This document shows, piece by piece, positions 47,193 to 47,539 of a stretch of DNA of 62,224 bases. The notes under the pieces were generated by a model, which was given only the letters and a program-made list of their open reading frames with translations, made no database searches and was not told the origin of the DNA. This DNA comes from an uncultured Candidatus Saccharibacteria bacterium (lineage in GTDB: Bacteria; Patescibacteriota; Saccharimonadia; Saccharimonadales; Saccharimonadaceae), in contig CALIJO010000091.1 of the NCBI GenBank assembly GCA_938017655.1, positions 1-62,224 on the forward strand, read 5' to 3'. Positions within the stretch are counted from its first letter, which is position 1; every line of letters begins with the position of its first letter. Made by a program: the position numbers and the translations under genes.

Positions 47193-47221
47193 TTGACTAT
47201 TTTTATTTATAATGCTATAAT
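47193..47221 (+). promoter_or_regulatory. Sigma70 promoter driving the putative large ncRNA
   Basis: TTGACT 47193-47198, 17 bp, extended TGcTATAAT with -10 at 47216-47221. Confidence 0.75.
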
Positions 47222-47227
47222 ACGAAC

Positions 47228-47539
47228 CAGTTAGGGGTTGGAGCCAGAAAAAGGCACGATCTCTAAACCGCACCTAAATAAATCATAATTTCTGTTACTA
47301 ATATAACAGAAGTTGCGTGTTCTTAAAAGACTTTCGGCTTACAATTTTTCTTTTATCGGTTGTAAGTATAAGTATTACCTCCACTTGAAAGTCAATTTTT
47401 AAGAACATAGCAACCCCTATAACCGGCGGGCCCCAATAGAGTGAGGTGGGTCACGCTCCGGGGCTCTCCCGGAATCAATAGAGATGCGTTGTAGGGTCTA
47501 ATAACCCCAAGTGATGCCCACCCTTACTTGGGGTTTTTT
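47228..47539 (+). ncRNA. Unidentified ~310 nt structured RNA
   Basis: Promoter, at least seven stems, two possible pseudoknots, terminator 47503-47539; no ORF in the track. Confidence 0.7.

What the first reader, a model, noticed from the sequence alone, without database searches (positions are those of the whole stretch)
47193..47539. Unidentified ~310 nt stand-alone, highly structured RNA
Seen: a consensus promoter and terminator with no ORF between; stem aggggttg 47233-47240 / caacccct 47411-47418 enclosing a gcc/ggc hairpin, hairpin 47287-47314 and a long arm (47318-47335 / 47387-47407 with an inner cttacaa/ttgtaag hairpin); two 3' hairpins; long-range pairings atctcta 47259-47265 / tagagat 47479-47485 and acctccact 47377-47385 / agtgaggt 47440-47447. 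It lacks tmRNA, RNase P and SRP signatures, and the next gene is convergent, so it is not a riboswitch leader. Inference: a new large ncRNA class (ribozyme or RNP scaffold). The 5' domain loosely resembles a retron msr-msd layout, but no reverse transcriptase is in the window.
Basis: partly seen in the sequence, partly recalled or inferred. Interest (0 to 1): 0.82.

Follow-up and report, generated by a model that had tools for sequence, protein, structure and literature searches.

The report
New structured RNA of Saccharibacteria
This is a real, independently transcribed, roughly 310-base folded RNA gene that matches no known RNA family, is present in most Saccharibacteria (tiny bacteria that live on other bacteria), and has an unknown job.

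Summary
Window 47193-47539 (+) holds a stand-alone RNA gene. It has a near-consensus sigma-70 promoter, a ~312-nt transcript (about 47228-47539) and an intrinsic terminator. No Rfam 15 family matches it or 20 distant homologues. RNase P RNA and tmRNA lie elsewhere in the genome. No SRP GTPase domain was found in 61 genomes of the order or 61 sampled across the phylum, and no reverse transcriptase in this genome.

The RNA occurs in 31 of 36 genus genomes. Its two signature loops occur, correctly spaced, in 328 of 401 sampled genomes of the order. It was not convincingly found in other Patescibacteria. It sits head-to-head with dprA.

Covariation supports a multi-helix fold.

Verdict: a new, order-wide class of large structured non-coding RNA with unknown function. 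My best guess is a trans-acting RNA or ribonucleoprotein that works through invariant C-rich loops, one resembling the ribosome's anti-Shine-Dalgarno sequence. Expression is predicted, not shown.

The parts
47193..47221 (+). Sigma-70 promoter: TTGACT, 17-nt spacer, TGcTATAAT (extended -10)
   Evidence: 11 of 12 matches, with TG. The TTGAC-N17-19-TATAAT pattern is present in 27 of 27 genus homologues. The best-scoring promoter-like site upstream of each of 25 distant homologues scores 9.5-12.5 on my 13.5-point scale.
47228..47539 (+). Predicted transcript (~312 nt). The 5' end is inferred from the -10 box and the 3' end from the terminator T-run.
   Evidence: Homologues are 250-414 nt among the 25 found with model R1, and up to 448 nt in the 75-sequence set. 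The ends are inferred, not mapped.
47231..47266 (+). P1, a local 5' hairpin whose sequence varies between species
   Evidence: 7 of 10 pairs show double-sided changes in the genus, though MAFFT aligns the region poorly (69% paired). When each sequence is folded on its own, 101 of 102 form a single hairpin of at least 5 bp.
47267..47286 (+). J1/2, a conserved single-stranded linker. It reads CCGCACCUAAAUAAAUCAU here and GYACCUUAUACCCCC in other families.
   Evidence: Alignments. Unpaired in the consensus fold.
47287..47314 (+). P2 hairpin
   Evidence: 80.5% paired, 7 of 11 pairs compensatory. Helices 2-3 are 86-91% paired. The order-level P2 is 93.7% paired.
47312..47413 (+). P3 arm. Contains the outer helix (about 47312-47328 with 47397-47413), P3a (47329-47334 with 47388-47393), a genus-specific inner hairpin (47338-47366), and the apical loop-A hairpin.
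   Evidence: P3 is 100% paired with 5 compensatory pairs and P3a is 91.6% paired with 5 of 5 compensatory. At order level 12 of 13 P3 pairs show double-sided changes. At least 12 bp enclose loop A in 101 of 102 sequences folded individually. Inner hairpin 77.8% paired.
47370..47386 (+). Loop-A hairpin: stem AAGU/ACUU with an invariant anti-Shine-Dalgarno-like loop, AUUACCUCC. Other families have UACCCUCC.
   Evidence: AGUAUUACCUCCACU is invariant in 27 of 27 genus sequences. CCCUCC is invariant in 53 of 53 sequences from other families. The stem is 87.1% paired at order level.
47415..47496 (+). P4 (47415-47423 with 47488-47496) closing the 3' domain. Inside are P5 (47425-47433 with 47448-47457), the G-rich strand GUGAGGUGGGU (47441-47451) and the P6 hairpin (47457-47473).
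   Evidence: P4 is paired in 99.9% of 918 cells across 102 sequences, with 4 compensatory pairs. P5 and P6 are 100% and 97.5% paired in the genus, with only one-sided changes. The inner domain differs between families.
47505..47539 (+). P7 intrinsic terminator. The loop GAUGCCCACCCUU (47513-47525) carries the invariant GCCCACC, and the T-run is 47534-47539.
   Evidence: The stem is paired in 97.6% of 950 cells with 9 of 10 pairs compensatory in 102 sequences. Loop sequences are tallied. The hairpin is duplicated in tandem in G010.
46147..47154 (-). dprA (DNA-processing protein A), the conserved divergent neighbour. This is context, not part of the RNA.
   Evidence: tblastn finds DprA upstream and divergent in 28 of 30 genus loci and 22 of 25 loci from other families. 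The name dprA rests on my reading of the translation; no family search was run.

Best explanation
This is the gene for a previously undescribed, stand-alone, constitutively transcribed structured RNA of about 250-450 nt that is specific to the order Saccharimonadales (Candidatus Saccharibacteria/TM7).

Shown by the sequence and comparisons:
- It has its own near-consensus sigma-70 promoter and a strong intrinsic terminator.
- It sits head-to-head with dprA.
- It folds as a 5' hairpin (P1), a conserved single strand (J1/2), a hairpin (P2), a long arm (P3/P3a) tipped by a small hairpin whose loop UACC(C)UCC resembles the 16S anti-Shine-Dalgarno sequence, a P4-closed 3' domain that varies between families but always carries GGUGGG, and a terminator hairpin whose loop UGCCCACC is invariant.

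Inferred:
- It acts in trans, as an abundant housekeeping-type RNA or as the RNA part of a ribonucleoprotein.
- Its contact surface is the set of invariant C-rich single strands (J1/2, loop A, P7 loop). These would pair with G-rich RNA such as Shine-Dalgarno regions, or be held by a protein.
- The helices serve as a rigid scaffold that displays those loops.
For: Real and independent gene. G-U pairs are conserved on the + strand only. There is no conserved ORF. In G008, G019 and 18 of 25 other-family loci the next gene found downstream by tblastn is convergent (pth). Where topA follows directly, the gap carries its own TTGAC-type promoter.

Conservation. 31 of 36 genus genomes. 26 of 151 order genomes with a genus-built model under strict filters. 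328 of 401 order genomes and 218 of 255 genera with the loop-A...P7-loop pattern, against 1 reversed-control hit. Two apparent absences are contig ends at dprA, and two genomes the model missed do contain it.

Structure. In the genus 90.4% of cells are paired against 40-50% for slid controls, 33 of 88 pairs are compensatory, and 0 of 500 shuffles do as well. At order level 77.4% against 30-48%, with 24 of 29 compensatory. P4 is 99.9% and P7 97.6% paired. The same architecture appears in 101 of 102 sequences folded on their own.

Not a known family.

Loops free for trans contacts. Loop A has no better complement inside the P4 domain than in shuffled domains (median z -0.7 to -1.2; 1 of 27 and 1 of 75 sequences at or below 5%). 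Loop A and the P7 loop are invariant over stretches longer than structure alone explains.
Against: No expression data. No RNA run holds the stretch, and the short contigs in X1-X4 cannot show transcription.

The mechanism is inferred only. No target, protein partner or phenotype is known.

The C-rich loops could instead pair inside the molecule. ACCUC-AC with GUGAGGU is possible in 27 of 27 genus sequences. CCCACC with GGUGGG scores better than shuffles in 65 of 75 other-family sequences, and GGUGGG is present in 102 of 102. However, 50 of those 75 were selected with a pattern that contains GGTGGG, so that test is partly circular.

A generic anti-SD-like loop would bind most mRNAs, which makes any specificity unclear.

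A genome-wide search for complements of the conserved strands gave only near-chance hits.
Confidence: 0.5

Rival explanations
1. The RNA is a self-contained ornate fold. The C-rich loops pair with the molecule's own G-rich strands: loop A with GUGAGG/GGAG loops, and the P7 loop with GGUGGG. This builds a compact pseudoknotted core that is itself the functional unit, whether a ribozyme, a ligand binder or a protein-bound scaffold, as in raiA/ModT, OLE or ROOL.
For: Complementary partners exist. PK1 (the candidate pairing of loop A, ACCUC-AC, with GUGAGGU) is possible in 27 of 27 sequences. GGUGGG occurs in 102 of 102 sequences, either next to P4 or in the P5 module; when the P4-adjacent copy is missing (27 genus sequences, L051, L053) the other copy is present. 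The P7 loop pairs with the P4 domain better than with shuffles in 65 of 75 sequences. Long invariant blocks and a multi-junction layout are typical of tertiary-structured RNAs.
Against: All candidate pseudoknot positions are invariant, so there is no covariation. Loop A's best internal complement is no better than shuffles. The GGUGGG tally is partly circular because of how the sequences were selected. No cleavage site, ligand or protein is known.
Confidence: 0.3
2. The RNA is a cis-acting regulatory element. It would be either a long leader or attenuator for topA, which follows it on the same strand in most of this genus, or a divergent-promoter or antisense device that controls dprA.
For: topA lies downstream on the same strand in 21 of 30 genus loci, and dprA is always adjacent. 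A 9-bp alternative pairing between GUAUUACCU and the 5' half of the terminator (AGGUGAUGC) was picked by RNAalifold on the 3' domain alone.
Against: In G008, G019 and in other families the order is topA, dprA (both on the opposite strand), then the RNA, then a convergent gene, so the RNA is not upstream of topA. The gap before topA carries its own TTGAC promoter motif. In several species the terminator stem is extended to about 20 bp, too strong for a 9-bp competitor. The alternative pairing is not conserved outside the genus (sequences). The RNA and the dprA coding region do not overlap.
Confidence: 0.07
3. The RNA is a very divergent member of a known housekeeping RNA family, with 6S RNA the only such family still unaccounted for in this genome.
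For: RF00013 finds no 6S RNA in G000. The strong constitutive-type promoter and single-copy, near-universal distribution resemble 6S.
Against: No Rfam hit even at E<=10 on 601 nt, and none in 20 homologues. The 5' and 3' ends form separate local hairpins instead of a closing stem, and there is no rod with a central bubble. RNase P RNA (192.7 bits) and tmRNA (76.4 bits) are on contig C21. The SRP proteins were not found.
Confidence: 0.04
4. The RNA is a retron msr-msd RNA or another template RNA for a reverse transcriptase.
Against: No RVT_1 domain in the 95.7%-complete genome. The RNA is single-copy, order-wide and syntenic, unlike mobile retrons.
Confidence: 0.01

Closest known systems
raiA motif RNA (ModT) of Bacillota and Actinomycetota
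   Same: It is a ~200-250 nt, independently transcribed, trans-acting, highly structured and very abundant RNA of unknown biochemical function, with pseudoknots and variable peripheral stems. Its gene lies next to a competence gene (comFC), as this one lies next to dprA. (PMC12968392: abstract and passages read. PMC10861870: search listing only. The comFC neighbourhood is partly recalled.)
   Different: No covariance-model hit. raiA is closed by a P1 helix formed from its 5' and 3' ends and has a 4-way junction core; here the two ends form separate local hairpins. The host phylum is different.
C-rich-loop regulatory sRNAs (6C RNA of Actinobacteria; RsaE/RoxS of Bacillota)
   Same: They have apical hairpin loops rich in C that pair with G-rich or Shine-Dalgarno regions of mRNAs. 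One such loop sits on the terminator hairpin. (Recalled knowledge; no paper was read here.)
   Different: Those RNAs are 60-120 nt with two or three simple hairpins. This RNA is 250-450 nt with at least 7 helices and a closed multi-helix domain. No Rfam hit.
6S RNA
   Same: A single-copy housekeeping RNA with a strong promoter, widely conserved within a lineage, and poorly conserved in sequence between lineages.
   Different: The defining rod with a closing stem and central bubble is absent. RF00013 gives no hit.
Large ornate orphan RNAs (OLE, ROOL, GOLLD, HEARO)
   Same: They are lineage-restricted, covariation-supported, multi-domain non-coding RNAs discovered by comparative genomics before any function was known. 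(PMC12286853: search listing only.)
   Different: None matches by covariance model. Those are mostly 300-800 nt and are often phage- or mobile-element-associated, whereas this RNA is chromosomal, syntenic and single-copy.

Membership tests
Bacterial RNase P RNA (RF00010) | Match to the covariance model (P4 core); one copy per genome | tested here: not met
   No hit at the locus. A genuine copy lies at G000 C21:14399-14810, 192.7 bits.
tmRNA (RF00023) | tRNA-like ends plus a tag reading frame; model or ARAGORN hit | tested here: not met
   ARAGORN finds none in the window. A genuine copy lies at C21:10778-11128, 76.4 bits.
SRP RNA (RF00169, RF01854) | Helix 8 motif; partner protein Ffh present in the genome | tested here: not met
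   No model hit in G000 or in 41 genus genomes. SRP_SPB is absent. The SRP54 GTPase domain gave 1 convincing hit (a probable contaminant) among 61 genomes of the order and 0 among 61 sampled across the phylum.
6S RNA (RF00013) | 5' and 3' ends pair into a closing stem; long rod with a central bubble | tested here: not met
   No model hit. The ends form separate hairpins, P1 and P7, each supported by covariation.
6S RNA (RF00013) | Binds RNA polymerase holoenzyme and templates product RNA | not testable with these tools
   Needs biochemistry.
raiA motif RNA | Closing P1 made from both ends, 4-way junction, PK1 and PK2 core (PMC12968392) | tested here: not met
   No Rfam hit at E<=10 or E<=5 in 20 homologue loci. 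The topology differs.
Retron msr-msd RNA | Adjacent or genomic reverse transcriptase | tested here: not met
   No ORF resembling an RT in the window near the element. No PF00078 match in G000.
Riboswitch, T-box or leader (cis-regulatory) | A regulated gene immediately downstream on the same strand across lineages | tested here: not met
   A convergent gene lies downstream in G000, G018, G008, G019 and in 18 of 25 other-family loci. No T-box or riboswitch model hit.
C-rich-loop sRNAs (6C, RsaE/RoxS) | C-rich apical loops on simple hairpins; about 60-120 nt; model hit | tested here: inconclusive
   C-rich apical loops are present and invariant. Size, architecture and model hits are not met. This is a resemblance in how it may work, not membership.

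The most novel reading that the evidence does not exclude
The RNA is the core of a Saccharibacteria-specific ribonucleoprotein, or a new large ribozyme, that acts on the translation apparatus. Its two look-alike loops (URCCCWCC, one of them an anti-Shine-Dalgarno mimic) would dock on G-rich Shine-Dalgarno-type sequences. That would give these ultra-reduced cells, in which no SRP GTPase domain was found, a global RNA-based handle on translation initiation or on where mRNAs are translated. It would be a housekeeping RNA on a par with 6S, SRP RNA or raiA, but confined to one candidate-phyla-radiation lineage.
Probability: 0.1. Interest if true: 0.92.

Novelty: categorically new. Interest (0 to 1): 0.78.

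Why it matters
Saccharibacteria include cultivated members of the candidate phyla radiation, with genomes under 1 Mb and about 94% coding (figure quoted in the TM7x transcriptome papers). Keeping a ~300-nt non-coding gene with a consensus promoter in 82% or more of sampled genomes of a whole order implies an important function.

Very few widely conserved large structured RNAs remain unexplained (raiA, OLE, ROOL, GOLLD). Each new one has opened new biochemistry.

This one is directly testable. Close relatives carrying the RNA include Nanosynbacter and oral TM7 taxa, and Saccharibacteria are naturally transformable, so targeted insertions can be made (PMC10633639, passages read). Its anti-Shine-Dalgarno-like loop and its fixed position beside the competence gene dprA give concrete hypotheses to test.

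Tried and rejected
- **Known families.** Rfam at gathering threshold on the window, at E<=10 on 47100-47700, and at E<=5 on 20 homologue loci. Only chance-level hits came back (ncS025, GcvB and similar).
- **SRP RNA idea.** I first gave this about 35% odds. I dropped it when no real Ffh/FtsY domain was found. The one real SRP54 hit (G009 C65) lies beside an SMC gene that is only 21-28% identical to anything in G000, so it is probably a contaminant. The loss of SRP is already published for Parcubacteria.
- **Expression.** No RNA holder was listed. When laid, runs X1-X3 gave single short contigs (151-245 nt) inside 47254-47498, and X4 gave a 379-nt contig from a relative that includes the promoter. 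This is not evidence on expression either way.
- **Antiterminator switch.** Pairing of block A with the 5' half of the terminator was rejected: it is not conserved outside the genus and is outcompeted by the long terminator stems.
- **Internal partner of loop A.** No better than shuffles.
- **Trans targets.** The longest exact complements of the conserved strands in G000 are 10-14 nt. The 14-mer beside glmS is not conserved: second sites occur in about 6 of 41 genus genomes against 3 reversed-control hits.
- **Wider distribution.** The pattern hits 2 of 378 non-order Patescibacteria, and both lack the internal motifs. Model R2 hits 1 of 144 at E=0.009, inside coding sequence with no dprA nearby.
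- **Full 5'-domain model.** A shorter model was built instead.
- The inner-hairpin columns (helices 6-7) were mis-registered by 2 nt.
- **Literature.** Searches, and term look-ups in eight papers, found no description of this RNA. Supplements were not examined.

Full report
**What is in the window.** Between dprA (46147-47154, minus strand) and a 198-aa gene (47780-48376, minus strand) lies a 625-bp gap with no conserved ORF. It contains:
- a near-consensus sigma-70 promoter: TTGACT 47193-47198, a 17-nt spacer with TG, and TATAAT 47216-47221, 11 of 12 matches;
- 312 nt further on, an intrinsic terminator: stem 47505-47512 with 47526-47533, loop GAUGCCCACCCUU, and T6 at 47534-47539.

The intervening RNA folds far better than shuffles: -106.2 kcal/mol, z = -5.3, 0 of 100 shuffles as stable.

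**It is not a known RNA.**
- Rfam 15 finds only two tRNAs in the window.
- It finds nothing above chance at E<=10 in 47100-47700, and nothing in 20 distant homologue loci.
- ARAGORN finds no tmRNA in the window.
- The 794-kb genome (95.7% complete) has RNase P RNA and tmRNA on contig C21.
- 6S and SRP RNA models find nothing in the genome.

I considered a divergent SRP RNA. However, the Ffh M domain is absent. The SRP54 GTPase domain is not found in G000. Among 61 genomes of the order there was one convincing hit (G009 C65), a probable contaminant, and there were none in 61 genomes sampled across the phylum. Loss of SRP is published for Parcubacteria (PMC4508563, passages read). No reverse transcriptase domain is present, which removes the retron idea.

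**Conservation and distribution.**
- blastn finds the element in 31 of 36 other genomes of the genus at 70-90% identity, and in 0 of 24 genomes from other families of the order.
- A covariance model of the 3' domain (R1) then found full-length matches in 26 of 151 genomes sampled from the order, under strict filters.
- A scan of one-genome-per-species contigs for GGTGGGTTGAAGG...GCCCACCC returned at least 119 loci. Almost all are labelled Candidatus Saccharibacteria, Saccharimonadales, Nanosynbacter or TM7 oral taxa.
- The pattern ACCYTCCAC-N120-400-TGCCCACCC (loop A to terminator loop) occurs, mostly once per genome, in 328 of 401 genomes drawn evenly from the order. That is 272 of 323 high-quality genomes and 218 of 255 genera, against 1 hit for the reversed control. 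This pattern excludes the window's own genus by design, because its loop A is one C shorter.
- Apparent absences are partly artefacts. In G154 and G026 the contig ends at dprA. In G186 and G039, which R1 missed, the motifs are present upstream of dprA.
- Outside the order the pattern hits 2 of 378 Patescibacteria, and both matches lack the internal motifs.
- A second model of the P3 arm (R2) hits 5 of 5 non-genus Saccharimonadales in a phylum-wide sample. It also hits 1 of 144 other genomes at E=0.009, but that match lies inside coding sequence.

The counts include unpublished genomes (G073; G383, G393, G303, G381, G348, G321). No claim depends on them alone.

**Gene context.** DprA is the divergent upstream neighbour in 28 of 30 genus loci and 22 of 25 loci from other families.
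- In most of the genus topA follows on the same strand (21 of 30 loci), which raised the possibility of a topA leader.
- In G008, G019 and the other families the order is instead topA then dprA on one strand, the RNA divergent from them, and a convergent gene downstream (pth in 18 of 25 loci).
- Where topA does follow directly, the 50-90-nt gap carries its own TTGAC-type promoter motif.
- In G000 and G018 a convergent 198-aa gene has been inserted between the RNA and topA.

The RNA is therefore a stand-alone gene. Its promoter is present in 27 of 27 genus copies, and the best-scoring promoter-like site upstream of each of 25 distant copies scores 9.5-12.5 on my 13.5-point scale.

**Strand and coding potential.** Many pairs are conserved as G-U, or alternate between G-U and A-U or G-C (for example columns 130/236, 134/232, 253/288, 258/282). 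These would be C-A mismatches on the other strand, so the plus strand is the functional one. The longest ORFs in 102 homologues vary in strand (50 plus, 52 minus), frame and length (19-78 aa).

**Structure.** In the 27-sequence genus alignment (A2), my model of 88 pairs has:
- 90.4% of cells paired, against 40-50% when partners are slid by 1-3 columns;
- 33 pairs with changes on both sides, against 10-14 in the slid controls;
- 0 of 500 shuffles reaching any of the measures.

Helices 6-7 of that call were mis-registered by my own coordinate slip. The corrected inner hairpin is 77.8% paired.

At order level:
- P1, P2, P3 and the loop-A stem together are 77.4% paired against 30-48% for slid controls, with 24 of 29 pairs compensatory (65 sequences).
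- P4 is paired in 99.9% of 918 cells, and the terminator stem in 97.6% of 950 cells with 9 of 10 pairs compensatory (102 sequences).
- Folding each sequence on its own gives a single P1 hairpin in 101 of 102, and at least 12 bp enclosing loop A in 101 of 102.

The consensus layout, from 5' to 3', is:
1. P1 hairpin.
2. J1/2 single strand: GYACCUUAUACCCCC in most families, GCACCUAAAUAAAUCAU in this genus.
3. P2 hairpin.
4. P3/P3a arm, ending in a 4-bp stem (AAGU/ACUU) with loop UACC(C)UCC.
5. A short linker.
6. P4, closing a domain that differs between families but always contains GGUGGG.
7. The P7 terminator hairpin, with invariant loop UGCCCACC.

In G010 the P7 hairpin is duplicated in tandem.

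The promoter, terminator, absence of an ORF, hairpin 47287-47314, the long arm with its inner hairpin, and the two 3' hairpins are all confirmed. The stem 47233-40 with 47411-18 and the pairing 47259-65 with 47479-85 are not conserved: 51.3% paired, no better than shuffles (124 of 500) or slid controls. The pairing 47377-85 with 47440-47 is possible in every genus sequence but is invariant, so it remains untested.

**How it may work.** This section is inference. The features that are invariant beyond what the helices require are C-rich single strands:
- J1/2: UAUACCCCC;
- loop A: UACC(C)UCC, containing CCUCC, the core of the 16S anti-Shine-Dalgarno sequence (my own knowledge);
- the P7 loop: UGCCCACC.

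Loop A has no better complement inside the molecule than in shuffled domains. That favours an outward-facing role, pairing with G-rich or Shine-Dalgarno-like RNA or binding a protein, with the helices acting as scaffold.

The P7 loop does have a conserved potential partner, GGUGGG, so a pseudoknotted, self-contained fold is the main rival. That evidence is partly circular because of how the sequences were selected.

A search for targets in the genome gave only near-chance matches. An antiterminator alternative is not conserved.

I put about 0.9 on 'new, real, stand-alone structured RNA class of Saccharimonadales'. I put about 0.3-0.35 on the trans-acting C-rich-loop mechanism specifically.

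**Comparison with known RNAs.** Functionally it most resembles the orphan housekeeping-type RNAs such as raiA/ModT: independent transcription, ornate fold, and a neighbouring competence gene. raiA, however, is closed by a helix formed from its two ends and has a different junction core (PMC12968392, abstract and passages read), and no covariance model matches. The C-rich loops recall 6C and RsaE/RoxS sRNAs (recalled, not read), but those are small and simple. 6S RNA is excluded by architecture.

Literature searches and term look-ups in the main texts of eight papers found no description of this RNA. Supplements were not examined, and the library lacks most subscription journals.

**What is missing.** There is no expression evidence. 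No RNA run holds the stretch, and the contigs laid cannot show transcription. Transcript ends, abundance, partners and phenotype all remain to be measured.

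Noticed in passing
whole genome G000 and relatives (no window coordinates): No real Ffh/FtsY (SRP54 GTPase) domain and no SRP RNA were found in G000. Among 61 genomes of the order there was one convincing hit (a probable contaminant); 41 genus genomes gave no SRP RNA hit; 61 genomes sampled across Patescibacteria gave no SRP54 hit. All 14 control genomes gave hits. 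Loss of SRP is published for Parcubacteria (PMC4508563). I found no explicit statement of it for Saccharibacteria in the papers I looked at.
   Followed up: partly
L035 (genome G010), 3' end of the RNA homologue: The terminal hairpin with loop GAUGCCCACCCUU is present twice in tandem. This suggests the hairpin is a self-contained functional module.
   Followed up: no
G012 C14:1-179, G023 C17:1-137, G154 C13 end, G026 C27 end: Several metagenome-assembled genomes break contigs at or right beside this RNA gene. In runs X1-X3 the short contigs all start at 47254-47260, where the variable P1 ends. Strain-level variation in P1 may be fragmenting the assemblies.
   Followed up: no
window 47640-48376: A 198-aa secreted-looking, Thr/Ser-rich protein (47780-48376, minus strand) with its own terminator (47663-47688) is inserted between the RNA and topA. 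This is seen only in G000 and its closest relative G018.
   Followed up: partly
G000 C16:10751-10764: A 14-nt copy of GAGTGAGGTGGGTC (the RNA's G-rich strand) lies just after glmS, so the glmS 3' UTR carries its exact complement. Second sites of the 12-mer occur in only about 6 of 41 genus genomes against 3 reversed-control hits, so I treated it as chance.
   Followed up: yes
window 47267-47286, 47374-47382, 47513-47525 and homologues: Three conserved single-stranded motifs resemble one another (UAUACCCCC, UUACCCUCC, GUGCCCACC; roughly URCCCWCC). They could be repeated binding sites for one partner.
   Followed up: partly
L013, L011, L016, L022, L028, L029 (gap between the RNA terminator and topA): A conserved GCTTGAC motif lies about 30-35 nt before the topA start codon and leaves almost no room for a leader. 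topA may therefore be transcribed as a leaderless or very short-leader mRNA in this genus.
   Followed up: no
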